A stretch of DNA of 64,000 bases from an uncultured Planctomycetia bacterium (GTDB taxonomy: Bacteria > Omnitrophota > Gorgyraeia > Tantalellales > Tantalellaceae): assembly GCA_964527765.1 (NCBI GenBank), contig CAZGQR010000002.1, positions 135,701 to 199,700 on the forward strand, written 5' to 3'. Below are positions 1-56,402 of this stretch, one piece after another. Within the stretch, counting starts at the first letter, position 1. Every line of letters begins with the position of its first letter. The position numbers were made by a program, and so were the translations under genes. The notes under the pieces are model-generated. The model was not told the origin of the DNA. It did not search any database and saw only the letters and a program-made list of their open reading frames with translations.

Positions 1-3000
1 AAAGCCCTGGAGAAAGCGCTGGATATATATAAACCCTATCTTCTGGTCGCCTCTTATATGACGCGTTCCGTGATAGGCGGAATGATCAGGCATTACAAAA
101 CGTGCGTAACGATCGAGAACCGTTTCAGGGAAGGGGCTTTTGATAAGGCGCTTTCACAGATAGAAAAGCTGGAAACCGAGGGCGGCCTGAGCCCGGAAGT
201 CCTGTCTTTTATCGGGAAGAAAGCGGCGAGGATCGGAGACATCCAAAAGGAGATCACGTCGATAAAGGAAAGGTTCGAGTCCGGGGATCTTTCTCTGCGC
301 TCCGCCCGGAACCAGGCCAGGGACATGCAGAAAGAGTGTCCGGGATATCCGGACACAAAGGAATTATTCGAGTATTTTGAACAAAAGAGAATAGAAGTGG
401 CGGGATATTTGGACGGCGCCGGCAGCAGCATTGAACTGCGGCGACCGGATGAGGCTTTTTCATTGATCCGGAAGGCGATGGCGATCGACAAAGAGAACAA
501 AGCGATGGCCAGGCCCCTGGTAAGGATAGCGGAGCTGTACATTCAGGGTAAGGATTTCGACTCAGCGAGAAAGTGTATAGATATCCTGATAGATGTAGAA
601 GGATGGAGGGATGATCCGACAGCTGAAAAACTTATTGTTTTGATCTGGGAATTGTGCCGCTCCGGAAGATATGGGGATGCGATAGAGCTATCCGACCGGC
701 TTTTTGAGAAAAAAATAAGCAGATGGTATAAGACAAAACTAAGGAGAATAAAGTCGGTCGCCGGGGCCAGCACGATCCTGGATGATCTCGATATCCATCT
801 GGCGATGATCAGGAACGCCCTGGAAGCCGAGAAGGCCGAGGAAGCGATAGAGCAGAAGATCCTTAAGCAGTACCGTACGCGTCTCATCGAATATAAGAAG
901 ATCAGCCCCACCAAGACAGGTTTCAGGATAGACAGGTTCAAGCACCTGAAGCCGGAAGAGGTGCGGAAATTGTTCAAGATCGGGGATAGTTTTGAGGTAT
1001 TCGGCCCGCTTCCGGACGGGGATAAAAGCGAAAGTAACGGTCCTGTCGTGGATGTTTCCTTCCGGGTAACGGCGGTCGGGGAAAGGGGCTGGGTGGCGTT
1101 CGAGATGCCGCCGTCCGCTCTGGAAAAGAAAGAGGAATTCATCAGGGATATACCCAGAAGAGGTTTTATCAGGAAACAGCCCAATATCCCGTTCGAACTG
1201 CAGAAAAGCGTGCTGGATGACCTTAAATGGAAATTATGGGAATCATTAAGAGCCGTAGATTATGAGGCGATAGGGAAGAAGGCGTTTTTTGAGCCTACCA
1301 CGGGACATCCCATAATTGATATCGTCCTTGGGTTGAAGGAAGCCCCGAAAAGAAAGGGAAGCGTTTCCTATGGGGGAGAGGGCCCCTGGGATGAGTGGCA
1401 GAGGAAGGCCATTGCAAGCGCCACGGACCTTTCTATCCCGGTAACCATAATTCACGGCCCCGGCGGAACGGGAAAAACCACGGTCACCGTGGAAGCTACC
1501 AGACAGCTTTCCGGAGAGATAATCAGGCAATTTTCGAAGAAGAAGAGCAGGATCCTTATAACCTCCCAGTCCAACCCTGCGGTGGACAATATCTGGAAAA
1601 GGGCCGCGTCCAAGGGATTAAAATTCATCCGCCTGGCTTTCAAGAGCTCTTCCATAGATACCAAAGTGATGAGGAACTGGGAGAGAAGACAGAAACATCT
1701 GGAAGATGCCAGGAAGAGGTATTACGGGGAAGAAGGCGCAGGGCCGGTCTATATCGGCACCAACATGGGCTGGGCGAATGATCCGTATGTCCGCAATAGC
1801 GCTTTTTATCTTGAACCGGATGTGGTCATAATAGACGAGGGAGGCAGGTCCACTCCCGGCGAGACCCTTTACGCGATATCCAGGATCAAACCTGACGGTA
1901 AAGTGATCATAGTCGGGGACCATCTGCAGTTGAGGCCGCACGGTTTTACCAGGGAGGATGTGGTCCGGATAAAAAGCGCGCTTTCATATAAAGAGAGAGA
2001 ACTGGAAAGATTATACACAGAGGAAAATCTCAGCAAGGTCACGACGTCCCTCTTTGAGAAGCTCTGCCAGCGCAGGGATATAGACTATCATCTCCTCCCC
2101 GTGAACAGGCGCTCTCATCCCGCAATAACGGGGTTTGTCAACGCTTTCGGGTATCTGAGGCACGGCGTCAAACTTCTTCCGCGCGATTGGGATAAGGAGA
2201 AGAAGGAGCCCTGCGAGAAGGATATAGTCACCGTGATAGATTATGGTGACGGCAAGATCCATGAGAGACTGGAGAGGGACGGTCAGGACCGCGTGCTAAA
2301 TGGGCGTATATACAATACCAGAGAAGTGAACGAGGTGATCGCCGAGATAGACAGATTCCTCAATATGAAACACCGGGGCCGCCCCAGATATGGCCCTGCC
2401 GATATTACCATCATCACGCCTTACAAAGCCCAGATCAGAGCCATAACGGAAGCGCTGAAGATAAAGGCGATAGTGAACGATCTGGATGAAGGCGTGATCG
2501 CGGACAGGAAAGAAGCCGTCGCTGTATTATCCGACCTGCCCCTGAGGAAGATCTCAAAAAGGATGTTTCCCCATATTGTTCAGGACGTAAAGATCGCTTC
2601 CGGCATGATCGAAGAACTCATCGGGAAGTTGAAAAACAATACCCGCATTTCACCGAGGGAGATGAGGATATATGCCAGAATAATAAGGAACGCGGCTCTT
2701 TACAACATAAGAAAGAAACACGGCCCGCGCAGCGTCGGCTATAAGGACATAACGAGTATCAGGCGGGTAAAATTGACTGCCGAAGGCGTCGAAGATGAAG
2801 AAGAGGTCATGGAAGGGGATGAGGAGCTCGATGTAGCGACCATAGATTCCATACAGGGTTCGGAGAACAAGGTCATCATCTGGTCGCTTGTGAGGAGTAA
2901 CAGACAGAACGATATCGGCTTCCTGGGCGCTCATGACGGCCCGAACAGAAACCTTGTTGCCGCCGGGAGGGCGGAAGAATATCTGACCGTCATAGGCGAT

Positions 3001-6000
3001 ATAAGCCACACGCTCGCCTGGGCCGATTATGGTCTGGAAAAAACGAATTATTCGGACTTGAGAAAGGCAAGTATCCGCCAGACCGCCGCGGCGTTCAGAG
3101 ACGGCCTGGAGCATTGCCGGGCGAACAATACGATCATAAGGACAAGCACCGACAGGAGAACAGGCAGGAACTCCGAAAATGACAGGCCCCGCAGCCCCTT
3201 GGGCGGCGTGCACGAGGGGTTTCTCCAGCTCCCCATGAGGCTCTTTTTCCGGAGCGCGGCTTACTTATCGGGTGCTTTACTGGCCGGTTTAACTTCGCTG
3301 CTCTTTTCTCATTCGGCAAAAGACCCCGCACCTATAAAAAAAGATATAGGTGAAAAAGATACAGCCGGGTATGACAGGATCGAAAGCGACCCCGCCAAGA
3401 TCGACCCCGCCCGCCTTACTGAAGCGCTGAAAGAACACCTGGGCTTTTTGATGTTTCATGATAAGGACGCCCGGGCCCAGATTTCAAAGTATTTAGAAGA
3501 TAAGAAATGCCTGACGGCTGTTACAGAAGACGGGGAGGTTGCGGGGTGCCTGATCTTTACCGTCGATGAAGAGAAGCTGTCGGCGCGCCAAATGGACATA
3601 TACGTCAGATGCTACCAGGCGGATCGGGGCATCGGCAGGGCGCTCTGGGAAGAGGCGAAAGAATACTTTGCGCGGAAGGGCATAACCAAGGCGGAAGCCC
3701 TGTGCGACAGGCCCGTACAGAGGGATTTCTGGGAGCATATCAGGGAAAATTACGGCGGCCCGCTTGAAATGATCATCAGGGACAGGGATGAAGGCGCGGA
3801 ACGGTTTTACTCGGTTTATGCGTTCGCGCCGCTTGCGTTTCTGCCTTTTGTTACGGTGGTGCCGGGTCTGAGTATCCTTATACTGGCGAGCACTGCCGCA
3901 TTTGTCCTTCTTGCCACGCTTTCAAGCCGGGGGGATCTTCGTCGGTATGAAAAATCCCTGTTCCTTTCCTCGTTCGGCAACGCGCGCGGGTCCACCAACG
4001 ATACTGATAATATTGACATGGAAATGCTATACAAAGCCTCCAGGCCCATAACGATCAAGGATGTCGGCATACCCTGGGCGGTATTTCCGAAGACCGGGGT
4101 TATGAATAAGATCGAGTTCCGCAGCATACCCTGCAGTGTTCTGGATTCTTCGGCCGCCGTTTACCGGGACAGTAAAAGGGATAAATATGTGATATTTATC
4201 GCTTCGCTGCTTTTGCGCAAAAAACACAGATCGGACATAGCGCTGTATTTCGCTCTTATCGACATATTTCTGGTCCTGCATGACGGGATACTTGAAAGAT
4301 CGGGCGCCTTTGACCCGAAACGGACGAATATCCTGGCATCCCAGGGCGGATTTTACCGGGAGGTCGTTTGCGCCATGCTGAACGGCGGCATGGCTGAAGA
4401 ATTCAGGATAGCGGCCCGCTTGGAAACCGAATTAAGCGGCAGGGAAAAAGCGTCTTTCAGGGGCGAGGATGTCCTGAGCGAAGGGGACAGGGAACATTCG
4501 GACATGGAAAAGAGCGTCGCGGGCAGATCCATAATAAATTTCATCGAATGGATGAAGGAGCCGGAAGTCACGGTAGTGGATTTTTCCGGCGAGATCAAAA
4601 AGGCGGAGAAGGTGTACAGGCCCGCCAGGACGGACATGTCCGCCAGGAAGCATCAGAAGCGTATGGCTTTCTGGAGCGAACACAGACAGATGATAGGAAG
4701 GTTCATACGGGGAGAATACAGGGACGATCCGGACCGCGCGCGGATCCTGCGAAAACTGGACGGCGCGGAAAGTCTCGTTTTTATCAAAAGCGGCATAGTC
4801 CCGTTCTCCAGGACGAGAGTGCGCCCCCCGATAAAGAAAGGCGTGCGGAGTTTTGCCGGCAAGGAGAACTGGCTGCGCATCAGGACAAAGATAGAGAACG
4901 GCAGGCTGAGGATAGAGTATCTCCTGGCCGGTGATCCTTATTTCGCGCATGTAAGTGATAGTTATGAGGAGGGCAGCGAAACACCGCTTTCCTTAGGTAA
5001 AGAACTTATCGAGTGGATGACCGACAAAGAGCGCCCGATGCCGCAGTCGGTACTCTCTATCGAGGCCGATATAAAAGGCAGAGTCCACCTGGGCACGTTT
5101 GACGGTGAGAGCATGTACCTGGATCTCGGGAAGCGCTTCAAAGAGACCGAAGGCGGCCTTCGGAGGAAAGTATGGATAAAAGCCAAGGTCAGCCGCAGGG
5201 ACGCGAAAGAGCTGGCCGTGTACCTGCGTCCCGACGGTCCCGAGATCATGCGTTTCAGGCCGATATACAAGGATGCCTCCGGGAAAAAGCTGGACAGGCT
5301 CGAGAAAAGGAAGGACCTGATACTGGACATGTTCAGCAGGGACGCGCTGGTCCACTGGGCCGGAGGGGGCAAGGTGGACATGGACTCCGACATAGAGTTC
5401 ATCTGGCCGGTAGAAAAGATGAGGATAGTGAAACTCGGTGACGACATGGTCGCTTCCGCGGGAGTGGATTACGAAGGCGACGATATTCTGGTCAGGGGCA
5501 AGGTCAACGTTCCCGGCGAGAAAAGGATAGAGTTCTGCCGTCCGGACGGCAGGCAGGTCCCCGTGCAGGTCAGGTTTTATGACGAGGAGTCCGGAACTCT
5601 CCTGAACGAACTGAGCGAACTGCGAAGAAGATTCGCGAGCTGGGAGGCGGGAGAAGACGCGCCCAATCCCATGGTCATTTCCGGTATCTTCGGGAACGGT
5701 TTTGAGATCGCCGAGGATGTCTTTGTCAGGATACCGAAGGCGGAAAGGGTCAAAAGCGGAAGATACCTGGTGGTGTTCGCGCAGCCCGGGGAGTATAAAG
5801 GTATAAAATTATACGCCCTTAACGGGCAGAACGCCCCCCTTAAATTTATCAGCACCTACTATTTCCATAAGGGAAAAAGGATAAAAACGGGGTGGGATGA
5901 AGAGGCAGAGCTTCTGTCGGCAGAAGATGAGTCCGCCATCAAAGAGATTCTTTGCCGGTGCGGCTACATTGCTTTTTTAAGAGAATCAAGCTTTTCGGCA

Positions 6001-9000: not shown

Positions 9001-12000
9001 TTAGCCGCCGAAACAAAAAGCATCAGGCTTTATGAATCCAGGTTAAGAAGAAGAATGGGCGCGGATGTTCGGGAGGTATCTGTCCGCAGGGCTGCGGTAA
9101 CGGCACTGGGTCTTCTTTACGCGGCATTGATCGACCACGGGAGGAAAATCGATGTTTCGATGCTGGAACAGAGGTTAAAGGATCCCGATATGCAGGTTTC
9201 CGAAGCCGCGGCGAACGCGTTAAGCTCTGTCTATGTGGCTCAGATCAACGCCAAAGGGGATGTCGATATATCCGCATTGGAACAAAGACTGAATGCCGAT
9301 CGTCACCTCGTCCGCGAAAAGGCAATAAAAGCCCTGGGGCCGGTCTACAGGGCCTTGATCGAAAAAGGGAAGCAGGTCGATCTATCCGATCTAAAGAAAA
9401 TGCTGGGGAATGCCTGCTACTGGCAGGTCCGCAGGGCCGCAACAACGGCGCTGGGCCTTGTTTACGTTTCCCTGATCGAACAGGGAAGAAAGGAAGAGAT
9501 CGATCTACCGCTGTTGAGGGAGATGCTGAATGATATAGACCTGGGCATTCGCAGGGTCGCGGTCAGCGCGGTGGGGGAAGTTTATGCTGCCCTGATCAGG
9601 CAGGGAGAAAAGGTTGATTTTTCCGATATCGAGGAGAAATTGAACAGGTATGACGAAGAGCTCCGCAGGCGCGCGGCAGAACAGCTCTCCCTTATCCATG
9701 ACGCGCTGGAGGGAAGAGATAGGGAAACCGATCTATCCTCTCCGGAGGAAACAGGCCCCGCCGGTATCGCGGGGATAGAGTCCGGCATCATCCTGGATCA
9801 GGATTATGCAAAATACCTATTCTGGACAAGAGAGAAGCTTCCCTACCACGAAGCGGTCATAGATGAATATCTGGCGTCCTCCCAGCCTCAGATATTCATA
9901 AGTGATCTGAAGCGCCGGGCCGAACGGTGCGTCCGGAAAGGGTTTGATCCCGAGGACCGGAGACAGCTGTGGCTTGCCTTTGTCGGAGCGAAGCTGAACG
10001 GGATAGACATTACGCATCATGATTTTACTGAACGGGTTGAAAGATTGGTCGAATTCGATGAAAAACACCCCGGTTATTTTTCCGACCTTTTCGGCAAGAA
10101 CAAGAAACTTAAAGCGATAGAGATAGCTGCCGGCGAGACACACGTCGTGGACACAAGCGAAGTCGATCATGCGGTCCTGGATGCCCATCTGGAAGAACTG
10201 TCAAGTATAAAGGAAAGGGTGGACAGTTGCCGGTGGCTTTCGGAAGATTTCCCGAAGCATAAATACTTCAACCTGCGAAACCTGTATTACCAGTTAAAAC
10301 GCGAGCAGGCGAGACAGGCGGGAGAGTACACCGGCGGAAAGTTTTTCATAATATTACCTTCGGAAGACCGGATGAGGGAAGAGATCGCCGGGAACAGGAA
10401 ACTTTTCTACAGGATCGTTTTCAAGGCGGCGTATCTCCGTCTGGGCGATAGGGAAATATCGGGAAATTGTCTTGAGCTGATGCGGGACCTGGTAATAAGC
10501 GATATTCTGTCGGATGATGCCATGAAAGGACAGCTTCATTCCTCAGATCCCGAGACCAGGGTAACCGCGCTTAAGGTCTTCTATGAGGATTACAAGAACC
10601 ACCTGCCGGATGCCTCGGGAATAGGCATGGAAAAAGTCAGGGGCCTGCAAAAAGCGCTGGATGAACTGTCCGGGGAAATATACGCCGAAATGGCCAAGAT
10701 AAAGATCGTCCGCCGGAAAAGGCGCGAGACCTATCGCCTGATCCCGCAAGGATTTTTAAGCGTCTTTCGCGGGAGAGCCGGCATTATCGACTGCTCCTTT
10801 GACGCGGAATATCACGGTTCAGCTTTTACCCGGGCGATGCATGAGGATACGGGTTATTATTTTGTTTATAACAAAAAGCTGAAGGGATACGTGGGGCTGT
10901 GCGAAGGCCTGACGGAAAAAGGCGAAAAGGTCCTGACCGTAGATACCATTAATTCTCCCTCCCTGGACGGCGAGGAGATGCTGATCAATCTGTTCGTGGA
11001 ATTGGAAGAGGCGGCCAGAGAGCTGGGATGCAAGGGGATCGCCCTGCCGGAGAACATGGTCCGCTCCTTTAATTTTGATAACAAATACACCATTTCCGGC
11101 ATGGATGCGTACAGGAAAGCCAGGCCCATAAAGGTGGTTCCCGTGCATTCGAGCAGCTGGAAACGGCTTGCCGATACATTCGGGAAAGATTCATATAATT
11201 CTATGGAAAGCGGCAGGTTCAAGCTGCTTGATCTTGATTCCCTGCGCCCTCCCGCTCCGGTCAGCAAGAGCTATGAAGACGGCGACATCGGGATAGAACA
11301 GGTAGATGCCCGGGGCTGGCCGGAAATAAAAGACGACATAATGAAGGTGGAAGAAGAGTCCTTTACCGGTCCCCTGAGACAGACCGAGGAGGATATCTCG
11401 GAGACCTTTGAGGACCCTGATTCCATTTGCCTGGTCCTGAAGGATAAGGGCGCAATAGTCGGTTACATGATGGGAGGTCCCCTGGAGGACTATTATTACC
11501 TGGCCGGAATAGAGGAAGACCCCGGCTATGGCGAAGAAAATACCGTTTATATCGAGTCCATTGCCCTGTTGCGGCCATATCAAAGGTCGGGATTAGGCAA
11601 AAAACTCAGAAATAAATTCCTTGATATTGCTCAGCAGAGAGGGTACCGGCAGGTCAGCGGCCATATAAGAGAGGAAGTGGCCCGGAGCAGGGGGGATAAC
11701 ATACTGGGCGCATTCGGGGAATGGCAGGGGACGGACACCACTTTTTGTTATTACAGTAACCCCATCAGATCGAAAAAGGCGGAGAAAAAGCACGCGCTGC
11801 GCCTGATCTCGGAACTCGTCACCAGATCGCAGGATCATGACTGGGAAGCGGCCGACCGCGCGGGGGAACTTCCCGACTTGAAAGGCCTTTTGCTGGGGGC
11901 GACCGACGGGCACGGAAGGATCACGTTCCGGCCGGTCAGGAACTATCCGTTCGAATGGGCCATGCTCGGTTCCGAGGAAAAGGGGTGGGAGGCTGTTGTT

Positions 12001-15000
12001 TCGGAAAGCGGTGTCCGGAACGGGCGTTTTGAATTTACCGTGAGATTTACCAAAGAGGGCAGAGAGCCCGTGAAGAAGGTCTTTCAGGTAGGTCCTTACA
12101 CAAGGGAACTGACAGGCCGCAATAAAGCGGAAGGAAAAACGCTTACGGTGCTGGATATCGACGACCGCCCCGGACTTAAAGCCGTTGCCGAACTCATTGC
12201 CAGGCCTCCCGGATATAACTGGGAGACCGCCGAAAATGACGGCAGGATCCCCGACCTGAAAGGCCTCCGGCTGGGGGCCGTGGACGGCCGCGGAAGGATC
12301 AATTTTTCTCCCGTCAAGGGTTATCCGTTCCAGTGGCACGTGCTGGGGTTCTACGAAGAAGGATGGGAAGCCGTTATCGTGGAAACTGAGGCGTGGAAAG
12401 AATATTTTCAGTTCAGTGTGGAGCTTACCAAGCCGGGCAGGGAACCCCTCAGAAAGGTCTTCCAGATAGGTTCCCTCACGAAGGATCTGTCCGGACAGTA
12501 TACGGAAAAGGGAAAAACCTGCAAGGTGTTGGATATTGACGACCGTCTCGGCCTTAGGGCCATTTCCGGGCTTATTACCAGACCGCAGGATTATGACTGG
12601 GGCTCCGCCGTGCGCGACGGCAGGCTTCCCGACCTGAGGGGCCTGCGGCTGGGAGTGACCGGAACACAAGGAAAAATCAGTTTCCATCCCGTTACGAATT
12701 ATTTATTCCAGTGGCATGTCCTCGGCTTTGATGAAGAAGGGTGGGAAGCGGTTATCGTGGGCAGCAGCGTGCATAACGGGCATTTTCAGTTTCTTGTAAA
12801 ACTTACCAGAGAGGGAAGAGAACCGATCCACAGGATATTCCAGATAGGCCCTTATGCCAGGATCATATACGGCCAGAACAGGGAGCGAAGAACGAAAAGG
12901 CACGTTCTGGATATCGTGAGCCTGCGGGCCGTGGAGCGATTGATGAATAAGGAGGAATATGTCAGGAAAAACGGGAAGGCGGCCTGGAATGAAAGGACGA
13001 ATGTTTACGAAGTTGCGTCCCCGGAAACTTTAGATCCCGTTGAGAGCGAGGAACTGGTGCAGAAAGTATCCCAGAATTTACTCGCAGTTATCGCATCTAT
13101 GACGGACGAGGAACGTGAAATAGTCTTGCGAATAGTAAGAAGAGATACGGGTCACAACATCGTTTCCGAGGGGTATGCGCCGGCAGATGTCCTGAACGTG
13201 AAGAGGAAAATAAACAGCGCGCTTAATCCTTTGCTTGATGAATACGGCCTGATCGGCAAGCACGCCGTCGTCAAGGGCATCCGGGCGGACGAGAAGACAG
13301 GAGAGATGACGGCCCGGATAAAGATCGTGGGTTCCGACGAAGAAGTGCCGCCCCTTATCCTGTCCCCCGGAGGAAAGCTGGATGTCCGCGCCTTGAAAAC
13401 GGCATTTGAGAGCATGGAAGAAGTGAAGTCAAAATACAACAAGGGAATGATCCTTTCCATGCTGGACCTGCTCGAAGGATCACCGCCCGAACTTTATACT
13501 TATGACGTTCTTGTGGAGGACCTTTTCGGTTTTGTTTCGGGCGAGCGCGATCTTATTGCCCTTCATGAAAGCGCAGCTTCCGACCCCATGGCCTTGTTCC
13601 ATGAGGCCGGTGAGTATCTTATAAAGAAAAAGATATTAAAGCTGAAACTGAGGCATGAAAGACTGGTGATCTCGACAGGTAAACGCGAGACGTTCACTCT
13701 CAACCTGGGCGGCGAGGCGCTGGCCGTTGCCAGGAAGAACACGGCCAGTCCCCACTATCTTTTCAGGGCTTTGCAGAGACAGATATTCAAGGAGAGGGAC
13801 GGGGATCTGACGGTAAGGATAAAGAACGAGCAGAAGAAAAAACTGTCGCATTCAACTATAAAAAATATTCTTATCATAGGGCAAAAACTGGATGACAGGG
13901 ACTGGCGCGTAGCCACGGCCGCGATCAAGACATTGGCTTCCATTTATATCTTCCTGATCAAGCAGGGCAAAGACGTTGACCTTGCCGCGTTTAAGCGGAA
14001 GATCAAGAATAAGGACTGGTACGTGCGCAAGGCCGCGTTCGCCGCGTTAAAACGCGTTTGCGACGCTCAGGCCGAGCAGGTAAAGGGTACCGATGAAGAG
14101 GCGCTCGGCCTTATCCGGGAATTCGAGCACACTTACCGGTGGCAGAATATCGAAACCGCACCCGAATCGATGGATGCCATGCTCATCAACATGTTTGAAT
14201 GGGGTCAGATGTCCCTGGCCGAGCTGGAAGGGAAAACCGGGAGCAATGATATGAAAGTCAGTGAAGCCGCGGCCAAAGCTTTGTGTTCCGTCTATATTAC
14301 CGCGTTTAACGAAGGCGGGATCCCCAGGTCTTACCTGGAGAGGCAGCTGAACGACAAGAACTGGTATCTCCGCAGAGCGGCGATGGCAGCGTTAAGCTCT
14401 ATTTATGCTGATCTGGTCAGGCAGGGAGAAAAGGTCGATCTGTCCCTTTTTGAAGAGGGGCTGGAACATGATTACTGGCGCTTTAAAGAAGGGCGCCCGT
14501 TACTGGATGCCGTTTACGTCAGTCTGGTCAGGGAAGGAAAAATGTCCTCGTCCGATATAGAACAGAAACTGGATCACAGGCAACTTCATATCCAGGAATC
14601 CGCGACAAAGGCATTGGGCCCTGCGTATATGATAGAAGTTAAGCAGGGAAGAGTGCCTTTGTCCGCCTTGAAGCAAAAATTGGATCACCATAAGGACTGG
14701 CGTGTCCGCAGGGCCGCGCTTTCGGCATTGGAACCGTTTTGCATCGATGCGATCGAGCAGGACGGAGTTCTCGACGATGATTATGAAAAACATCTGATCT
14801 GGCAGAAAGAAGGCTTCCCCTATCAGGAAGAGGTGTTCAGCCGGTTCCTGGCCTCCCCCCGGCCGGATGACCCGCGGCGTTTTATAGATTCCCTGTTCAG
14901 GCAGAGGATCCTTGAGGGCATGGAGAAGGATGTAATGCCCTGCCTGGTGAACGCGCTGATCGCCGTTTCGGAAAGGAAGGAAAAGGTCATCCTGGCCCTT

Positions 15001-15558
15001 GACATTGATCTCGGGGAAGGCCAGATAAACACCCTTCTTGAAAAGTTGATCAGGGTGATCCCCGCGCTTAAAGACAATAACGAGGACCTGAAAAGGTTCC
15101 TGGATAATCTGCATGTGATCAAGGGCACGGGCAGGGATCTCAGTCTCAGGCTTAATAACGTGACCGATCCTTCCAGGGGTTCCGCGAAGAAGGAAGACGT
15201 GATAATCGTGACCAAGGACTCGAACGCGGAGCATTTCAGGGATTTCAAGGGCGCGGCTACCATGGCTGTTGTTGATGACGGCGCGTTCCCGGAGACGGCT
15301 TACCTGCCGCTTCTGGAGATCATGCTGTTTGCGATCAGCAAGCACCTCGGGTGGGATAAGAAGGCCCTTCTCAAATATTACGGGATGATACCGAACGTGG
15401 TTTCCGTAGAAGATCTGAATCCCGGGGATTATGCCGGGCTGTTCGGCGGGGATGAGAGGCTTCTGGTGATAAGGCTCGTGCCGGACGCCGTGCAGTTCGA
15501 CAAGGAAGAGCTCAGGGAGATGATGGACAGCATAAAGGTCATGCTGGCCAGGGCGTAA
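1..15558 (+). CDS. Giant multidomain protein (>=5166 aa; first ATG at 58, but the frame is open with no stop back to nt 1, so probably 5'-truncated by the window). Domain order: N-terminal helical region / SF1B Upf1-like helicase / GNAT-1 / TM hairpin / ~1100 aa unknown / TM hairpin / Ser-Thr kinase / TM hairpin / HEAT array 1 / unknown / GNAT-2 / 3x tandem 126-aa repeats / unknown / HEAT array 2 / conserved C-terminal domain
   Basis: Single uninterrupted ORF in frame 1. Recognisable motifs: helicase Walker A HGPGGTGKTT, motif II VVIIDEGG, ITPYKAQ and a GSENKVIIWSLVRSN motif-VI-like stretch; GNAT RGIGRAL and QRSGLGKKL motifs; kinase IGVGGMGVVY / ALKIL / HRDLKPDNILI / DFGIAK / SYMAPE. Strong AGGAGG RBS of the next gene follows 50 nt after the stop. 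No ATG-proximal SD at 58, so 58 is probably an internal Met. Confidence 0.85.
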   Translation, partial: KALEKALDIYKPYLLVASYMTRSVIGGMIRHYKTCVTIENRFREGAFDKALSQIEKLETEGGLSPEVLSFIGKKAARIGDIQKEITSIKERFESGDLSLRSARNQARDMQKECPGYPDTKELFEYFEQKRIEVAGYLDGAGSSIELRRPDEAFSLIRKAMAIDKENKAMARPLVRIAELYIQGKDFDSARKCIDILIDVEGWRDDPTAEKLIVLIWELCRSGRYGDAIELSDRLFEKKISRWYKTKLRRIKSVAGASTILDDLDIHLAMIRNALEAEKAEEAIEQKILKQYRTRLIEYKKISPTKTGFRIDRFKHLKPEEVRKLFKIGDSFEVFGPLPDGDKSESNGPVVDVSFRVTAVGERGWVAFEMPPSALEKKEEFIRDIPRRGFIRKQPNIPFELQKSVLDDLKWKLWESLRAVDYEAIGKKAFFEPTTGHPIIDIVLGLKEAPKRKGSVSYGGEGPWDEWQRKAIASATDLSIPVTIIHGPGGTGKTTVTVEATRQLSGEIIRQFSKKKSRILITSQSNPAVDNIWKRAASKGLKFIRLAFKSSSIDTKVMRNWERRQKHLEDARKRYYGEEGAGPVYIGTNMGWANDPYVRNSAFYLEPDVVIIDEGGRSTPGETLYAISRIKPDGKVIIVGDHLQLRPHGFTREDVVRIKSALSYKERELERLYTEENLSKVTTSLFEKLCQRRDIDYHLLPVNRRSHPAITGFVNAFGYLRHGVKLLPRDWDKEKKEPCEKDIVTVIDYGDGKIHERLERDGQDRVLNGRIYNTREVNEVIAEIDRFLNMKHRGRPRYGPADITIITPYKAQIRAITEALKIKAIVNDLDEGVIADRKEAVAVLSDLPLRKISKRMFPHIVQDVKIASGMIEELIGKLKNNTRISPREMRIYARIIRNAALYNIRKKHGPRSVGYKDITSIRRVKLTAEGVEDEEEVMEGDEELDVATIDSIQGSENKVIIWSLVRSNRQNDIGFLGAHDGPNRNLVAAGRAEEYLTVIGDISHTLAWADYGLEKTNYSDLRKASIRQTAAAFRDGLEHCRANNTIIRTSTDRRTGRNSENDRPRSPLGGVHEGFLQLPMRLFFRSAAYLSGALLAGLTSLLFSHSAKDPAPIKKDIGEKDTAGYDRIESDPAKIDPARLTEALKEHLGFLMFHDKDARAQISKYLEDKKCLTAVTEDGEVAGCLIFTVDEEKLSARQMDIYVRCYQADRGIGRALWEEAKEYFARKGITKAEALCDRPVQRDFWEHIRENYGGPLEMIIRDRDEGAERFYSVYAFAPLAFLPFVTVVPGLSILILASTAAFVLLATLSSRGDLRRYEKSLFLSSFGNARGSTNDTDNIDMEMLYKASRPITIKDVGIPWAVFPKTGVMNKIEFRSIPCSVLDSSAAVYRDSKRDKYVIFIASLLLRKKHRSDIALYFALIDIFLVLHDGILERSGAFDPKRTNILASQGGFYREVVCAMLNGGMAEEFRIAARLETELSGREKASFRGEDVLSEGDREHSDMEKSVAGRSIINFIEWMKEPEVTVVDFSGEIKKAEKVYRPARTDMSARKHQKRMAFWSEHRQMIGRFIRGEYRDDPDRARILRKLDGAESLVFIKSGIVPFSRTRVRPPIKKGVRSFAGKENWLRIRTKIENGRLRIEYLLAGDPYFAHVSDSYEEGSETPLSLGKELIEWMTDKERPMPQSVLSIEADIKGRVHLGTFDGESMYLDLGKRFKETEGGLRRKVWIKAKVSRRDAKELAVYLRPDGPEIMRFRPIYKDASGKKLDRLEKRKDLILDMFSRDALVHWAGGGKVDMDSDIEFIWPVEKMRIVKLGDDMVASAGVDYEGDDILVRGKVNVPGEKRIEFCRPDGRQVPVQVRFYDEESGTLLNELSELRRRFASWEAGEDAPNPMVISGIFGNGFEIAEDVFVRIPKAERVKSGRYLVVFAQPGEYKGIKLYALNGQNAPLKFISTYYFHKGKRIKTGWDEEAELLSAEDESAIKEILCRCGYIAFLRESSFSADKLARYILQTLGRTPLNGEDIVKVTAVHTHAAGRAIEKCLSGLVGKGKLLRTGSGMYLPVVRRKCANMGHHAPKISLDGTHYAFGISAGVSDDATVFLAAEASNGKKFPIAVVKDGKPVLWYRVIRRADGGVASCGLRSCRSEIELLGRKGTFFFENWRANTKRGKGRGVAGRIGDTVIKGKPGEYFSGIVSDGKIVRLDVWRNPCHRPYKVVARPQGDKGVPVYKVDKDSEAYKREYTTKEDKIRFWERELYDLSGAKRRKAIQQLEKLGARFDGIRALTLVDCLNSNYGVSEGCRLFVKTFGVIVDACIKSAWRDERSRKELLELLYITDSSVIRKAFRGIASRDPSLYADMLGAYTKKYSADYKNRHDAYHLALLEALRADLKAKRFDRFPDRALDVLREWYEHKLRSPGKTPHIRARTKEYLKTIENFRKKSRNFRRKNKIRLYSIDPFTAGLAAAGVSSLFGSIGVSILSPLVLTVAAIIFSFSWFAAGGEDAGKGKKEDAKAKGPQKDSPLAHLPDLHKRFAVKKKIGVGGMGVVYLVFDVNLRREAALKILFDQSERARERFRREIKRLRSLRHPNIVKVLGSSSVRKDYKGPSYIVMEYVEGESLMKFYRKRKYNNEKALLELISDILLPVAKGIRYIHGKNIIHRDLKPDNILISKTGVPKIADFGIAKLGAGATRSDEHSLTKTGYVVGSPSYMAPETFRNMIETWIPDDIESLLPDKKSPGYKEWKKSPRYKPYEYLKELRRLVNKRQFKKMSVQADIYSLGLIFCETCTGKLPFKYEGDDGIKKLRSKVFERIPLDEIAPKLYSEFRKLIEDMLDLDPNKRPTSKQLVRKLERIEKKLKKRLEEKKKPVFKTVLKYGLIAAGIGATALVTHLLFPGLIRSILNWLGIGFILTAGTMVSVTGDGGPGTETEELSRSSVKDLLALENELSDSSAEVRADAIAKLGPVYTAFIGQGRDVRDRVFNLEQKLADNHPAVREAAGSALRSIYAALAAETKSIRLYESRLRRRMGADVREVSVRRAAVTALGLLYAALIDHGRKIDVSMLEQRLKDPDMQVSEAAANALSSVYVAQINAKGDVDISALEQRLNADRHLVREKAIKALGPVYRALIEKGKQVDLSDLKKMLGNACYWQVRRAATTALGLVYVSLIEQGRKEEIDLPLLREMLNDIDLGIRRVAVSAVGEVYAALIRQGEKVDFSDIEEKLNRYDEELRRRAAEQLSLIHDALEGRDRETDLSSPEETGPAGIAGIESGIILDQDYAKYLFWTREKLPYHEAVIDEYLASSQPQIFISDLKRRAERCVRKGFDPEDRRQLWLAFVGAKLNGIDITHHDFTERVERLVEFDEKHPGYFSDLFGKNKKLKAIEIAAGETHVVDTSEVDHAVLDAHLEELSSIKERVDSCRWLSEDFPKHKYFNLRNLYYQLKREQARQAGEYTGGKFFIILPSEDRMREEIAGNRKLFYRIVFKAAYLRLGDREISGNCLELMRDLVISDILSDDAMKGQLHSSDPETRVTALKVFYEDYKNHLPDASGIGMEKVRGLQKALDELSGEIYAEMAKIKIVRRKRRETYRLIPQGFLSVFRGRAGIIDCSFDAEYHGSAFTRAMHEDTGYYFVYNKKLKGYVGLCEGLTEKGEKVLTVDTINSPSLDGEEMLINLFVELEEAARELGCKGIALPENMVRSFNFDNKYTISGMDAYRKARPIKVVPVHSSSWKRLADTFGKDSYNSMESGRFKLLDLDSLRPPAPVSKSYEDGDIGIEQVDARGWPEIKDDIMKVEEESFTGPLRQTEEDISETFEDPDSICLVLKDKGAIVGYMMGGPLEDYYYLAGIEEDPGYGEENTVYIESIALLRPYQRSGLGKKLRNKFLDIAQQRGYRQVSGHIREEVARSRGDNILGAFGEWQGTDTTFCYYSNPIRSKKAEKKHALRLISELVTRSQDHDWEAADRAGELPDLKGLLLGATDGHGRITFRPVRNYPFEWAMLGSEEKGWEAVVSESGVRNGRFEFTVRFTKEGREPVKKVFQVGPYTRELTGRNKAEGKTLTVLDIDDRPGLKAVAELIARPPGYNWETAENDGRIPDLKGLRLGAVDGRGRINFSPVKGYPFQWHVLGFYEEGWEAVIVETEAWKEYFQFSVELTKPGREPLRKVFQIGSLTKDLSGQYTEKGKTCKVLDIDDRLGLRAISGLITRPQDYDWGSAVRDGRLPDLRGLRLGVTGTQGKISFHPVTNYLFQWHVLGFDEEGWEAVIVGSSVHNGHFQFLVKLTREGREPIHRIFQIGPYARIIYGQNRERRTKRHVLDIVSLRAVERLMNKEEYVRKNGKAAWNERTNVYEVASPETLDPVESEELVQKVSQNLLAVIASMTDEEREIVLRIVRRDTGHNIVSEGYAPADVLNVKRKINSALNPLLDEYGLIGKHAVVKGIRADEKTGEMTARIKIVGSDEEVPPLILSPGGKLDVRALKTAFESMEEVKSKYNKGMILSMLDLLEGSPPELYTYDVLVEDLFGFVSGERDLIALHESAASDPMALFHEAGEYLIKKKILKLKLRHERLVISTGKRETFTLNLGGEALAVARKNTASPHYLFRALQRQIFKERDGDLTVRIKNEQKKKLSHSTIKNILIIGQKLDDRDWRVATAAIKTLASIYIFLIKQGKDVDLAAFKRKIKNKDWYVRKAAFAALKRVCDAQAEQVKGTDEEALGLIREFEHTYRWQNIETAPESMDAMLINMFEWGQMSLAELEGKTGSNDMKVSEAAAKALCSVYITAFNEGGIPRSYLERQLNDKNWYLRRAAMAALSSIYADLVRQGEKVDLSLFEEGLEHDYWRFKEGRPLLDAVYVSLVREGKMSSSDIEQKLDHRQLHIQESATKALGPAYMIEVKQGRVPLSALKQKLDHHKDWRVRRAALSALEPFCIDAIEQDGVLDDDYEKHLIWQKEGFPYQEEVFSRFLASPRPDDPRRFIDSLFRQRILEGMEKDVMPCLVNALIAVSERKEKVILALDIDLGEGQINTLLEKLIRVIPALKDNNEDLKRFLDNLHVIKGTGRDLSLRLNNVTDPSRGSAKKEDVIIVTKDSNAEHFRDFKGAATMAVVDDGAFPETAYLPLLEIMLFAISKHLGWDKKALLKYYGMIPNVVSVEDLNPGDYAGLFGGDERLLVIRLVPDAVQFDKEELREMMDSIKVMLARA
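1390..3010 (+). other. Domain of giant ORF: SF1B (Upf1/DNA2/NAM7-like, AAA_11/AAA_12-type) helicase
   Basis: WQRKAIASA..IIHGPGGTGKTT (Walker A at ~1456-1482), DVVIIDEGG (~1819-1845), IIVGDHLQLRP, YNTREVNEV, ITIITPYKAQIRAI, IDSIQGSENKVIIWSLVRS, NRNLVAAGRAEEYLTVIGD. Order and spacing are typical of Upf1-like helicases. Confidence 0.75.
3410..3780 (+). other. Domain of giant ORF: GNAT-family N-acetyltransferase-like domain 1
   Basis: Beta-strand/acetyl-CoA loop pattern ..VAGCLIFTVDEE..IYVRCYQADRGIGRALWEEAKEYFARKGITKAEA.. (R/QxxGxG/A motif). Confidence 0.55.
7565..8545 (+). other. Domain of giant ORF: Hanks-type Ser/Thr protein kinase catalytic domain, flanked by predicted TM hairpins at ~7340-7490 and ~8590-8745
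   Basis: GxGxxG (IGVGGMGVVY), VAxK-like ALKIL, HRDLKPDN catalytic loop (~7958-7981), DFG (~8017-8025), APE (SYMAPE). Hydrophobic stretches LAAAGVSSLFGSIGVSILSPLVLTVAAIIFSFSWF and LIAAGIGATALVTHLLF / ILNWLGIGFILTAGTMVSV lie on either side. Confidence 0.8.
8800..9700 (+). repeat. Domain of giant ORF: HEAT-like repeat array 1 (about 8 units of ~38-40 aa: VRxAAxxALGxVYxALIxQGxxVDxSxLEQxL)
   Basis: Recurring VRADAIAKLGPVY / VREAAGSALRSIY / VRRAAVTALGLLY / VSEAAANALSSVY / VREKAIKALGPVY / VRRAATTALGLVY / IRRVAVSAVGEVY units. Confidence 0.7.
11290..11700 (+). other. Domain of giant ORF: GNAT-family acetyltransferase-like domain 2
   Basis: ..ICLVLKDKGAIVGYMMG..VYIESIALLRPYQRSGLGKKLRNKFLDIAQQRGYRQVSGH.. 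(canonical QxxGxG/A acetyl-CoA motif). Confidence 0.6.
11830..12945 (+). repeat. Three tandem in-frame repeats of ~378 nt / 126 aa in the giant ORF (unit: DWExA..DGRxPDLKGLRLGxxDGxGRIxFxPVxNYPFxWxVLGxxEEGWEAVIVxS..F.F.V.LTKxGREPxxKxFQxGxxTxxLxGxxxEKxKTxxVLDIDDRxGL)
   Basis: Units at ~11830-12215, 12216-12590 and 12591-12945; roughly 50-60% aa identity between units judged by eye; no family assignment possible. Confidence 0.8.
13860..14790 (+). repeat. Domain of giant ORF: HEAT-like repeat array 2
   Basis: DWRVATAAIKTLASIYIFLIKQGKDVDL.., WYVRKAAFAALKRV, VSEAAAKALCSVYITAFNEG, WYLRRAAMAALSSIYADLVRQGEKVDLS, WRVRRAALSALEPF. Same repeat flavour as array 1. Confidence 0.65.
14935..15555 (+). other. 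C-terminal ~205-aa domain of the giant ORF, homologous (~60% aa identity) to the C-terminus of the downstream 1450-aa protein; family unknown
   Basis: [92 protein letters not shown] aligns colinearly with 19340-19957 of the next gene. Both proteins end with ML-A-K/R-A stop. Confidence 0.8.
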
Positions 15559-15607
15559 TGCGGTACATGATCGAAGAATAATATTCAAATAAATAAGGAG
15601 GAGAAAA

Positions 15608-23914: not shown

Positions 23915-24003
23915 TAGATAAAATCGACCGTGTCGTTACGAATGAAATTTCTTGAAACAAAAGTAGTTATGTGCTATTTTCGTTAAGGAACAGGAGAGAT
24001 ATC

Positions 24004-54773: not shown

Positions 54774-56402
<1,629 letters not shown>

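What the first reader, a model, noticed from the sequence alone, without database searches (positions are those of the whole stretch)
1..15558. Giant (>=5.2k aa) membrane-associated multi-enzyme ORF: helicase + 2x GNAT + Ser/Thr kinase + HEAT arrays + tandem repeats
One uninterrupted 15.5 kb reading frame carries an SF1B Upf1-like helicase, two GNAT-like acetyltransferase domains, a Hanks-type kinase, at least three pairs of TM helices, two HEAT arrays and three 126-aa tandem repeats. About 40% of the length (roughly 3960-7320, 9700-11290 and 12945-13860) has no motif I can recognise. Combining nucleic-acid-remodelling, acetylation and phosphorylation activities in a single membrane-embedded polypeptide is not a described architecture. 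Giant genes of this kind are typical of poorly studied candidate-phylum bacteria and are functionally uncharacterised. A tool built on helicase, acetyltransferase and kinase activities is a plausible inference for effector, defence or predation-type functions, but that is speculative.
Basis: partly seen in the sequence, partly recalled or inferred. Interest (0 to 1): 0.9.

Follow-up and report, generated by a model that had tools for sequence, protein, structure and literature searches.

The report
Omnitrophota-type giant multi-enzyme membrane protein gene
The reading frame is real, but it is only the last two thirds of a 7,859-residue membrane-tethered chain of enzymes of a kind already reported from Omnitrophota bacteria; the new point is that it shares both of its end domains with the HEAT-enolase gene next to it.

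Summary

The ORF is cut by the window edge. A 99.97% identical public contig gives the full gene: 23,580 nt, 7,859 aa. The missing N-terminal third carries a signal-peptide-like start and a circularly permuted iPGM-like domain.

This fits the giant ORFs and long multi-enzyme membrane proteins already described in Omnitrophota, so the claim of an undescribed architecture is overstated.

New details found here:
- The giant protein and the co-transcribed HEAT-enolase gene share the same N-terminal domain (31% identity) and the same 220-aa C-terminal domain (55% identity).
- Several internal modules exist as separate genes, or in other giant proteins, in Omnitrophota relatives.
- The 126-aa repeat folds confidently but matches no solved structure.
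- A 1,150-aa stretch has no homolog among 1.84 billion representative proteins.

Catalytic motifs are intact. Function and membrane topology remain inferred. I favour a cytoplasmic-face, membrane-tethered enzyme scaffold. A surface or effector role is the main rival. There is no support for a defence system or an assembly artefact.

The parts
1..15558 (+). The 3' 5,185 codons plus stop of a 23,580-nt gene (7,859 aa). Window aa 1 corresponds to aa 2675 of the full protein P0001.
   Evidence: No stops in frame 1. Full-length protein P0001 and its contig L001. Only 5 nt differences between window and L001 over 15,558 nt. Uniform coding potential.
433..600 (+). TPR-like helical repeats, the end of a long helical region that begins upstream of the window.
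   Evidence: TPR_19 E 2.3e-7, TPR_14 E 6e-5.
853..3006 (+). Cassette of an N-terminal region plus a Upf1/IGHMBP2-like SF1B helicase (aa 285-1002). Walker A GPGGTGKT at aa 486, DEGG at aa 612, GDHLQL, and motifs V/VI. It has an insert of about 115 aa at aa 822-936.
   Evidence: Pfam AAA_11/AAA_12. TIGR00376, 123 bits. PDB 4b3g and 2xzl. The same cassette occurs in the giant proteins P0005-P0007. Motifs located.
3469..3720 (+). GNAT acetyltransferase 1, with motif A RGIGRA at aa 1209.
   Evidence: Acetyltransf_1 E 3.7e-5, 24.4 bits against a cut-off of 20.7. Motif located.
3808..3921 (+). Hydrophobic hairpin B (two short helices joined by a PG turn). It is 49% identical to hairpin A in the part of the protein upstream of the window.
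   Evidence: Hydropathy. Self-match of P0001 aa 1653-1694 with aa 3934-3978.
3931..7350 (+). Orphan segment of about 1,140 aa with no recognisable family.
   Evidence: No Pfam hit. No PDB sequence match. One marginal hit (E 8e-4) among 1.84e9 representative proteins. Nothing in GTDB genomes. It is nonetheless coding: LLR +0.2 to +0.39 in frame 1.
7351..7476 (+). Hydrophobic hairpin C. Its upstream flank carries 9 K/R in 20 residues.
7555..8520 (+). Hanks-type Ser/Thr kinase (GxGxxG, AxK, HRDLKPDN at aa 2653, DFG at aa 2673, APE), with an insert of about 52 aa before subdomain IX.
   Evidence: Pkinase E 2e-52. PknB 1o6y E 5e-30, with alignment. Motifs located.
8602..8736 (+). Hydrophobic hairpin D. 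Its upstream flank carries 10 K/R in 20 residues.
8758..9708 (+). HEAT array 1.
   Evidence: HEAT_2, HEAT and HEAT_EZ. 31% identical over 383 aa to array 2. Related to the HEAT array of P0004.
9700..11289 (+). Conserved Omnitrophota module: a helical domain followed by a GNAT-like alpha/beta domain.
   Evidence: Separate proteins of 540-920 aa at 45-55% identity (P0011-P0020). In L084 a HEAT gene precedes the module-plus-GNAT gene, the same order as here. AF2 pLDDT 71. The weak Foldseek hits are mostly GNAT folds, none significant.
11338..11673 (+). GNAT acetyltransferase 2, with motif A QRSGLG at aa 3861.
   Evidence: Acetyltransf_1 E 4.4e-12. The same module-plus-GNAT arrangement occurs in P0015.
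11791..12924 (+). Three tandem copies of a 126-aa domain (two helices plus a seven-stranded antiparallel sheet).
12925..13830 (+). Post-repeat region. Its first 100 aa or so travel with the repeat in P0002; the rest is unassigned.
   Evidence: P0002 aa 3499-3819 aligns to window aa 4083-4412. No Pfam hit.
13831..14910 (+). HEAT array 2 plus the same tail motif as array 1.
14887..15555 (+). C-terminal domain (CTD, about 221 aa) shared with the next gene.
   Evidence: 55% identity, E 6e-84, to the C-terminus of the HEAT-enolase protein. DNA repeat D4. The CTD profile also hits the C-terminus of another Omnitrophota giant in L085, E 9e-4 among 491 sequences. No Pfam or PDB match.
15559..15607 (+). 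A 49-nt spacer with the ribosome-binding site AAGGAGGAG and no terminator, so co-transcription is likely.
15608..19960 (+). Paralogous partner gene of 1,450 aa: signal-like N-terminus plus NTD, a HEAT array flanked by a duplicated 47-aa element, a divergent enolase, and the CTD.
   Evidence: Pfam HEAT_2 E 3e-153, Enolase_C E 6e-38, Enolase_N E 7e-11. Enolase alignment. NTD 31% identical to the giant's N-terminus, E 4e-26. CTD match.

Best explanation
Shown:
- Window 1-15558 is the distal two thirds of one genuine 23.6-kb gene. The organism is a diderm bacterium, most likely of phylum Omnitrophota.
- The 7,859-aa product is a modular chain, in this order:
  1. a signal-peptide-like N-terminus plus a conserved domain of about 150 aa (NTD);
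  2. a circularly permuted iPGM-like domain;
  3. a transmembrane cluster;
  4. a TPR superhelix plus a Upf1-like helicase;
  5. a GNAT;
  6. a 1,150-aa orphan segment;
  7. a Hanks kinase;
  8. a HEAT array;
  9. a helical/GNAT-like module plus a GNAT;
  10. three copies of a 126-aa beta domain with no solved structural relative;
  11. a second HEAT array;
  12. a conserved C-terminal domain of about 220 aa (CTD).
- The modules are separated by short hydrophobic hairpins.
- The next gene (HEAT array plus enolase) carries the same NTD and CTD. It follows after 49 nt, with its own ribosome-binding site and no terminator.
- Several modules occur as free-standing genes, or in other giant proteins, in Omnitrophota.
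- The catalytic motifs of the helicase, the kinase and both GNATs are intact. The metal-binding residues of the iPGM-like and enolase domains are intact too.

Inferred:
- The gene grew by inserting or fusing autonomous gene cassettes between a fixed pair of end domains.
- The hairpins tether the chain to the cytoplasmic membrane, with the cofactor-dependent enzymes on the cytoplasmic face.
- The HEAT arrays act as docking surfaces.
- The shared end domains give the giant protein and the HEAT-enolase a common targeting or assembly route.
- Together they form a membrane-bound platform. It places an RNA/DNA helicase, protein phosphorylation and acetylation next to two consecutive lower-glycolysis activities (iPGM-like, then enolase).
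For: Real gene:
- No stops in frame 1, and native codon usage in every block.
- Collinear with an independent public contig at 99.97% identity.
- No long near-identical DNA repeats that could mislead an assembler.

Domains and active sites.

Shared end domains:
- CTD 55% identical, E 6e-84.
- NTD 31% identical, E 4e-26.
- In the Omnitrophota MAG locus L085 three giant genes lie in tandem. Two of them share an NTD at 79% identity. The upstream one ends in a match to this CTD.

Modularity:
- The helicase cassette occurs in P0005-P0007, the HEAT array plus tail in P0004, and the repeat in P0002, P0008 and P0009.
- The 530-aa module occurs as separate genes, and in L084 in the same HEAT, module, GNAT order.

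Cytoplasmic face:
- The flanks of the TM cluster and of hairpins C and D carry 6-10 K/R per 20 residues.
- The helicase, kinase and GNATs need ATP or acetyl-CoA (established biochemistry).

Likely co-transcription.

Class precedent: PMC10066038, bioRxiv 2023.11.21.568195 and bioRxiv 2026.06.07.730766.

The giant's iPGM-like domain is an extra copy: a canonical stand-alone iPGM lies in the same window.
Against: - The N-terminus of both proteins looks like a cleavable Sec signal (K/R-rich start, hydrophobic core, VVWA followed by N/D-P). That would put the NTD, the iPGM-like domain and the whole HEAT-enolase outside the cytoplasm. The two CTDs would then sit in different compartments under the cytoplasmic-face model.
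- Topology was judged only from hydropathy and charge. No dedicated predictor could be run.
- The 2026 preprint reports that many multi-enzyme giants are predicted as signal-peptide-plus-TM proteins.
- There is no expression or proteomic evidence for this gene.
- The assignment to Omnitrophota rests on 59-64% LeuRS identity, with mixed MAG labels, and on module homologs.
- Conservation of the NTD and CTD beyond one other locus is weak or not significant.
Confidence: 0.65

Rival explanations
1. Exported, surface-displayed or host-directed protein. The signal peptide sends both proteins across the inner membrane, and the CTD is a sorting or anchoring domain. The chain then coats the cell or is inserted into a host or prey cell, where the ATP- and acetyl-CoA-dependent modules act as effectors and the HEAT and enolase parts act as adhesins.
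For: - Signal-peptide-like N-termini are conserved in both paralogs and in P0005 and its neighbour.
- The HEAT-enolase has no other hydrophobic segment.
- Giant Omnitrophota proteins are proposed to be surface coats, adhesins or predation factors, and their HEAT and glycolytic domains are predicted to be extracellular.
- A canonical cytoplasmic iPGM exists separately in the window.
Against: - The strongly positive flanks of the hairpins argue for a cytoplasmic location.
- A helicase, a kinase and GNATs are useless outside a cytoplasm.
- The 64-kb window holds no secretion-system, pilus or adhesin-type genes or domains among the ORFs scanned.
Confidence: 0.25
2. Polyprotein. The giant ORF is translated once and then cut into separate enzymes.
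For: - Related giants carry strongly over-represented junction motifs. P0004 has G[AS]R[LM]A at 19 sites, P0006 has RSE[AS]R, and P0002 has [AS][AS]SLG.
- In P0004 the motif is conserved at the peptide level, not the DNA level.
- Cleavage has been proposed in the literature, but without known sites.
Against: - This protein has no recurrent short motif above the level of a shuffled control.
- It has no protease domain or protease motif.
Confidence: 0.12
3. Anti-phage defence protein of the Mokosh type (kinase plus Upf1-like helicase).
For: PADLOC MkoA models hit the helicase (E 1e-48) and the kinase (E 4e-39).
Against: - The domain order is reversed, and the two domains lie about 1,700 aa apart.
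- There is no PLD nuclease or MkoB partner.
- The NCBIfam defence models score far below their cut-offs.
- The neighbours are anthranilate synthase, IspH, glycogen phosphorylase and similar genes, not a defence island.
Confidence: 0.03
4. Assembly or annotation artefact: several genes fused by mis-assembly or by sequencing errors.
For: The sequence is metagenome-derived and contains repeats.
Against: - An independent contig is collinear, with 5 nt differences in 15.6 kb.
- The internal repeats are only 50-56% identical at protein level, and TRF finds none at DNA level.
- There are zero stops in 5,185 codons, against 217-307 in the other frames.
Confidence: 0.02

Closest known systems
Giant ORFs (>20 kb) of Omnitrophota (Seymour et al. 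2023, PMC10066038)
   Same: - The gene is 23.6 kb.
- It has multiple hydrophobic segments.
- Few of its domains are annotated and it is poorly conserved.
- The genome context and the homologs point to Omnitrophota.
   Different: That paper stresses adhesin-type domains (discoidin, laminin_G, dockerin). None is present here; the content is enzymatic.
'Multi-enzyme metabolic cluster' long proteins, signal-peptide-plus-TM or TM-only class (Nielsen & Lui 2026, bioRxiv 10.64898/2026.06.07.730766)
   Same: - Many different Pfam families tile one polypeptide, with HEAT scaffolding, GNAT and kinase-type content.
- It is membrane-anchored.
- It has a signal-peptide-like start.
   Different: - That catalogue starts at 10,000 aa; this protein has 7,859.
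- A search of the paper's main text for PF13086, PF13087 and PF00069 found no mention of them.
- Text searches for terminal, tandem and paralog terms found no description of shared end domains or paralogous neighbour genes.
Archaeovorins (West-Roberts et al. 2023, bioRxiv 10.1101/2023.11.21.568195)
   Same: HEAT repeats, GNAT domains, glycolytic-enzyme domains, many TM segments, and the same unresolved topology problem.
   Different: - Archaeovorins are at least 30,000 aa.
- They are defined by glycosyltransferases, methyltransferases, glycoside hydrolases, peptidases, NUDIX and SecA_DEAD domains. None of these is found here.
Upf1/IGHMBP2/Mov10-type SF1B helicases, including Mokosh MkoA
   Same: The helicase core motifs. 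In MkoA there is also a Ser/Thr kinase in the same polypeptide.
   Different: - This helicase is embedded in a 7.9k-aa membrane protein.
- There is no CH, zinc-knuckle or nuclease partner.
- It has an insert of about 115 aa in domain 2A.
- It is not in a defence context.
Membrane-anchored RNA degradosomes (RNase E or RNase Y scaffold with an RNA helicase and enolase)
   Same: A membrane tether, an RNA-type helicase and enolase, plus another glycolytic enzyme, encoded together. This resemblance is drawn from general knowledge, not from a test.
   Different: No ribonuclease domain was detected. The helicase is SF1B rather than DEAD-box. The association is inferred only from gene adjacency and the shared end domains.

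Membership tests
Omnitrophota giant ORF (Seymour et al. 2023) | ORF longer than 20 kb | tested here: met
   Full gene is 23,580 nt on L001. The window holds 15,558 nt of it.
Omnitrophota giant ORF (Seymour et al. 2023) | Encoded in an Omnitrophota genome | tested here: inconclusive
   Best LeuRS hits are 59-64% identical, to MAGs labelled Omnitrophota or 'uncultured Planctomycetia'. Module homologs come from Omnitrophota/Omnitrophica MAGs. No rRNA or marker-set phylogeny was possible.
Omnitrophota giant ORF (Seymour et al. 2023) | Multiple predicted transmembrane helices | tested here: met
   Hydropathy shows an N-terminal segment, a cluster of 3-4 helices and four hairpins in the full protein; three of the hairpins lie in the window. 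No dedicated predictor was available.
Long multi-enzyme proteins (Nielsen & Lui 2026) | Length of at least 10,000 aa | tested here: not met
   7,859 aa.
Long multi-enzyme proteins (Nielsen & Lui 2026) | Many distinct Pfam families tile the polypeptide, with none dominating | tested here: met
   Metalloenzyme/iPGM_N, TPR, AAA_11/12, Acetyltransf_1 (twice), Pkinase and HEAT.
Archaeovorin (West-Roberts et al. 2023) | At least 30,000 aa, with glycosyltransferase, methyltransferase, glycoside hydrolase, peptidase and NUDIX domains | tested here: not met
   None of these families appears in the Pfam scans of the whole protein. Length is 7,859 aa.
Archaeovorin (West-Roberts et al. 2023) | SecA_DEAD / SecA preprotein-binding domains | tested here: not met
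   The only P-loop helicase is Upf1-like AAA_11/AAA_12. There is a single Walker A motif in the window part.
Upf1-like SF1B helicase | Motifs I, II, III, V and VI, and similarity to Upf1/IGHMBP2 cores | tested here: met
   GPGGTGKT, DEGG, GDHLQL, IDSIQGSE and VAAGRA, with alignments to 4b3g. TIGR00376 scores 123 bits, below its equivalog cut-off of 349. It is therefore a member of the superfamily, not an IGHMBP2 ortholog.
Hanks-type Ser/Thr kinase | G-loop, VAIK lysine, HRD, DFG and APE motifs | tested here: met
   Alignment to PknB 1o6y. HRDLK at aa 2653 and DFG at aa 2673.
GNAT acetyltransferase | Pfam Acetyltransf_1 above the gathering score, and motif A (Q/R-x-x-G-x-G/A) | tested here: met
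   24.4 and 46.7 bits against a cut-off of 20.7. RGIGRA and QRSGLG. The third, GNAT-like fold at 9700-11289 rests only on non-significant Foldseek hits.
Mokosh type I (MkoA/MkoB) | MkoA helicase (with or without kinase) together with a PLD-nuclease partner | tested here: not met
   The MkoA models hit only the generic helicase and kinase cores, in reversed order. No PLD or nuclease is present in the protein or its neighbours.
RNA degradosome-like assembly | A ribonuclease scaffold (RNase E, Y or J) that binds the helicase and enolase | tested here: not met
   No RNase family appears in any scan. Physical association is not testable with these tools.

The most novel reading that the evidence does not exclude
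The conserved N-terminal (signal-like plus about 150 aa) and C-terminal (about 220 aa) domains may define an undescribed 'bookended carrier' family in Omnitrophota.

In this reading, tandemly encoded proteins share the same two ends. Between those ends, arbitrary cargo cassettes are inserted: extra copies of central-metabolism enzymes such as iPGM-like, enolase, pentose-phosphate and glycogen enzymes, together with helicases, kinases and acetyltransferases. The ends would serve as a common targeting or head-to-tail assembly system. That system would build a membrane-bound or surface-bound enzyme platform. Here it would be a degradosome-like or metabolon-like pairing of a helicase with iPGM-like and enolase activities.
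Probability: 0.2. Interest if true: 0.7.

Novelty: new member of a known kind. Interest (0 to 1): 0.45.

Why it matters
Giant genes take up a large share of the small genomes of Omnitrophota, yet nobody knows how they are built, exported or used.

This example is small enough to work with. Its modules have intact active sites, and its partner gene shares both end domains. That gives concrete handles:
- the end domains can be used as profiles to find and classify the whole family;
- the free-standing versions of the modules show where the cassette borders lie;
- the 126-aa repeat and the 1,150-aa orphan segment are candidates for new folds.

As a finding in itself it is an ordinary member of a known, if poorly understood, class.

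Tried and rejected
- **Exact look-up of the HEAT-enolase protein:** not on record.
- **Collection scans:** the GTDB genome scan with the orphan segment found nothing. The metagenome scans with the CTD alignment and with the repeat region found nothing. The repeat alignment was too variable to search with.
- **CTD in more distant giants:** hhalign of the CTD against the C-termini of P0004 and P0005 was not significant. phmmer and hmmsearch of the CTD against the other giants were not significant either. Wider conservation is therefore claimed only for L085.
- **Repeat unit of P0005:** a profile of its roughly 95-aa repeat does not match the orphan segment.
- **Recurrent junction motif:** none was found in this protein, with exact or reduced alphabets and a shuffled control.
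- **In-frame Shine-Dalgarno plus start codon:** I tested whether the GAR[ML]A motif of P0004 encodes one. Its codons vary synonymously, so the conservation is at the peptide level and the idea was rejected.
- **Protease and nuclease motifs:** HExxH and related patterns are absent.
- **Mokosh, MADS, BREX and PLuB defence models:** they hit only generic helicase or kinase cores, far below their cut-offs.
- **dN/dS between the window and L001:** not informative, with only 5 differences.
- **afdb50 fold library:** not available.
- **Self-hit in the representatives library:** that library did not return the protein itself. 'No homolog' therefore means none in that library.
Full report
**Observation.** Frame 1 of window 1-15558 has no stop codon in 5,185 codons. 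Frames 2 and 3 have 307 and 217. The frame ends at TAA 15556-15558. A codon-usage score trained on housekeeping genes of the same window is positive in frame 1 (+0.20 to +0.54 bits per codon) for every 1.5-kb block. It is negative in the other two frames, and this includes the stretches without recognisable domains. The frame is open at base 1, so the gene is cut by the window.

**Full-length gene.** A protein search returned a 7,859-aa protein, P0001, that covers the query at 100% identity. Its gene lies on a 113-kb ENA metagenome contig, fetched as L001, and is 23,580 nt long. Window and contig differ at 5 of 15,558 positions in the gene and at 13 of the next 10,000. They are collinear. No DNA-level tandem repeat or long near-identical repeat lies inside the gene. 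A mis-assembly or a fusion by sequencing error is therefore very unlikely.

All are confirmed (window aa coordinates).
- *Helicase.* Pfam finds AAA_11 and AAA_12 (E 2e-22 and 8e-27) at aa 464-821. The last helicase motifs follow at aa 937-1002, after an insert of about 115 aa. The closest solved structures are IGHMBP2, Upf1/Nam7 and Dna2. The Walker A, DEGG, GDHLQL and motif V/VI residues are present.
- *GNAT1.* aa 1162-1235, weak but above Pfam's cut-off. Motif A is RGIGRA.
- *GNAT2.* aa 3780-3890, E 4e-12. Motif A is QRSGLG.
- *Kinase.* It aligns to PknB with all catalytic motifs and has an insert of about 52 aa after APE.
- *HEAT arrays.* The two arrays (aa 2920-3236 and 4611-4970) are 31% identical to each other, including a shared tail motif.
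- *Repeats.* The three 126-aa repeats are at aa 3931-4308 (nt 11791-12924), 50-56% identical.
- *Hairpins.* Three hydrophobic hairpins lie at aa 1270-1307, 2451-2492 and 2868-2912. Each is two short helices joined by a PG or SP turn.

**The part outside the window.** The first 2,674 residues add the following:
- A signal-peptide-like start, [31 protein letters not shown].
- An iPGM-like domain.
- A cluster of three or four hydrophobic helices.
- A fourth hairpin, 49% identical to the one at window aa 1270-1307.
- A long helical or TPR-like region.

The iPGM-like domain is circularly permuted relative to solved iPGMs. Chain residues 235-495 come first, then residues 4-191. The metal ligands are kept, and the catalytic Ser position holds a Thr. 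A canonical stand-alone iPGM of 542 aa, with Pfam E-values near 1e-68, lies at window 54774-56402. The copy in the giant protein is therefore an extra, divergent one.

**The neighbour is a paralog.** The next gene (15608-19960, 1,450 aa) follows after 49 nt that hold an AAGGAGGAG ribosome-binding site and no terminator-like hairpin. It encodes a HEAT array and a divergent enolase. The enolase keeps the metal ligands and most catalytic residues. The Glu211-equivalent position is uncertain.
- Its last 221 residues are 55% identical to the last 221 of the giant protein (E 6e-84). This is also visible as a 300-nt DNA repeat at 71% identity.
- Its first 154 residues, including the same VWQGVVWA(D/N)P motif, are 31% identical to the giant's N-terminus (E 4e-26).
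- The two co-oriented genes are therefore paralogs that share both end domains and differ in what lies between them.
- Inside the HEAT-enolase gene, a 47-aa element (140 nt, 91% identical) flanks the HEAT array on both sides. This looks like the trace of a recent insertion or duplication.

**Relatives and modularity.** No protein other than P0001 covers more than 10% of the query, but individual modules recur.
- The helicase with its upstream region occurs in three giant proteins of 4.8-7.3k aa. One of them is named Candidatus Omnitrophota by NCBI. These also carry PLP-dependent, HAD, HD, glycogen-debranching, GH77 or glycogen-phosphorylase domains.
- The HEAT array plus tail occurs in a 7,836-aa protein with amylase, PEP-utilizer and sigma-70 domains.
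- The 126-aa repeat occurs in a 4,626-aa giant, in a 1,168-aa protein with a metallophosphatase domain, and in an 882-aa protein.
In one locus a HEAT-repeat gene is followed by a gene encoding this module plus a GNAT, the same order as inside the giant protein.
- In the locus of P0005, three giant genes lie in tandem. Two of them share an N-terminal domain at 79% identity. The upstream one ends in a sequence that matches the CTD profile built here (E 9e-4 among 491 sequences). The NTD profile hits the N-terminus of the downstream one (E 1.2e-3).
- Comparison with the C-termini of more distant giants was not significant.

**Unassigned parts.**
- *The 530-aa module.* It gives a moderate model (pLDDT 71) with a helical N-half. 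Its C-half draws weak Foldseek hits that are mostly GNAT folds: the ICL2 acetyl-CoA-binding domain, Rv1916, SSAT and SpeG, at E 0.008-0.5, none significant. A third, degenerate GNAT-like domain is plausible but not shown.
- *The 1,150-aa segment at nt 3901-7350.* It has no Pfam hit and no PDB sequence match. It has no relative in GTDB genomes. Among 1.84 billion representative proteins it draws only one marginal hit, at E 8e-4. That library did not return the protein itself, so absence is relative to that library.
- *The CTD.* It has no Pfam or PDB match.

**Context and taxonomy.** The rest of the window encodes ordinary chromosomal functions:
- anthranilate synthase, IspH and polyprenyl synthase;
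- two PP2C/SpoIIE phosphatases;
- glycosyltransferase, GH130 and glycogen phosphorylase;
- UvrD, MgtE, PurH, MnmE and Era;
- AccA, MlaEF, an L,D-transpeptidase, iPGM, sulfate adenylyltransferase/APS kinase, deoxyhypusine synthase and LeuRS.

Among the ORFs scanned there is no defence island, mobile element or secretion system. MlaE points to a diderm envelope. LeuRS is 59-64% identical to MAGs labelled Candidatus Omnitrophota or uncultured Planctomycetia. Together with the module homologs, this makes Omnitrophota or a close PVC relative the likely source, but it is not proven.

**What is known.**
- Giant ORFs above 20 kb are reported in most Omnitrophota genomes. They are described as poorly conserved, TM-rich and of unknown role (PMC10066038).
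- West-Roberts et al. describe Archaeovorins of at least 30,000 aa with HEAT, GNAT and glycolytic-enzyme domains. They note the same conflict between predicted extracellular location and intracellular-type enzymes, and state that cleavage points are unknown.
- Nielsen and Lui catalogue 916 long proteins of at least 10,000 aa. These include a 'multi-enzyme metabolic cluster' class and signal-peptide-plus-TM and TM-only topologies.
- The present protein fits this kind. It is shorter than the last two thresholds and lacks the domains that define Archaeovorins.
- Text searches of those papers for terminal-domain, tandem, paralog and cleavage terms found no description of shared end domains or paralogous neighbours.

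**Mechanism.** The anatomy, the intact active sites, the shared end domains and the modular relationships are shown. The rest is inferred. I favour a membrane-tethered scaffold with the enzymes on the cytoplasmic face, for two reasons. The flanks of the TM cluster and of hairpins C and D carry 6-10 Lys/Arg per 20 residues. The helicase, kinase and GNATs also need ATP or acetyl-CoA.

The signal-peptide-like N-termini argue the other way. They would place the iPGM-like domain and the whole HEAT-enolase outside the cytoplasm. This conflict is unresolved and is the main weakness of the explanation. The pairing of a helicase with iPGM-like and enolase activities on a membrane tether recalls RNA degradosomes. 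No ribonuclease was found, so that remains an analogy.

**Polyprotein processing and the other rivals.** Polyprotein processing is suggested for some relatives by strongly over-represented junction motifs. This protein has none, and it has no protease. A Mokosh-type defence role is rejected: the order is reversed, there is no nuclease, and the context is housekeeping.

**Verdict.** The finding is a new member of a known, poorly understood class, with some new and testable anatomical details.

Noticed in passing
L082 (P0004), L086 (P0006), and proteins P0002, P0008, P0009: Related giant proteins carry lineage-specific short motifs that recur at module borders. P0004 has G[AS]R[LM]A at 19 sites in 7,836 aa (GARMA seen 7 times, 0.004 expected). 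P0006 has RSE[AS]R, P0002 has [AS][AS]SLG, and P0008 has GLEE. In P0004 the codons vary synonymously, so the conservation is at the peptide level. These are candidate processing or junction sites. Text searches of the two giant-gene preprints found no such sites described, and one states that cleavage points are unknown. The protein studied here has none.
   Followed up: partly
window 54774-56402; L001 10697-12370 (P0001 aa 233-790): A canonical stand-alone iPGM lies in the window. The giant protein's N-terminal part, upstream of the window, holds a circularly permuted iPGM-like domain (PDB 2ify residues 235-495, then 4-191). It keeps the metal ligands and has Thr at the catalytic Ser position.
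   Followed up: partly
window 16091-16230 and 17687-17826: A 140-nt direct repeat at 91% identity, encoding a 47-aa element EYFS(G/S)GAEV.WSEWE..., flanks the HEAT array of the HEAT-enolase gene. It may be the footprint of a recent module insertion or duplication.
   Followed up: partly
L085 1-34304: In an Omnitrophota MAG, three giant genes lie head to tail (over 5,107 aa, 4,767 aa and over 6,252 aa). The third carries pentose-phosphate enzymes (Ribul_P_3_epim, Rib_5-P_isom_A). The second and third share a 79% identical N-terminal domain.
   Followed up: partly
C-termini of P0001, P0002, P0004, P0005, P0006, P0008 and the HEAT-enolase (window 19930-19957): Most of these proteins end in a helix followed by small residues: ...MLARA, ...MLAKA, ...ATMA, ...EQAA, ...YLAAA, ...VLSAA, ...GREA. 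The endings are reminiscent of ssrA-like ...LAA tails. Their significance is unknown and was not tested statistically.
   Followed up: no
window 23971-25428 and 52837-54753: Two PP2C/SpoIIE-type phosphatases, one of them with a CHASE2 sensor domain, are encoded in the same window. They are possible counterparts of the Hanks kinase module.
   Followed up: no
window 11593-12687 (-) and 14500-15753 (-): Long antisense ORFs of 364 and 417 aa overlap the giant gene. They are probably shadow ORFs of a GC3-rich coding strand. They were not examined.
   Followed up: no
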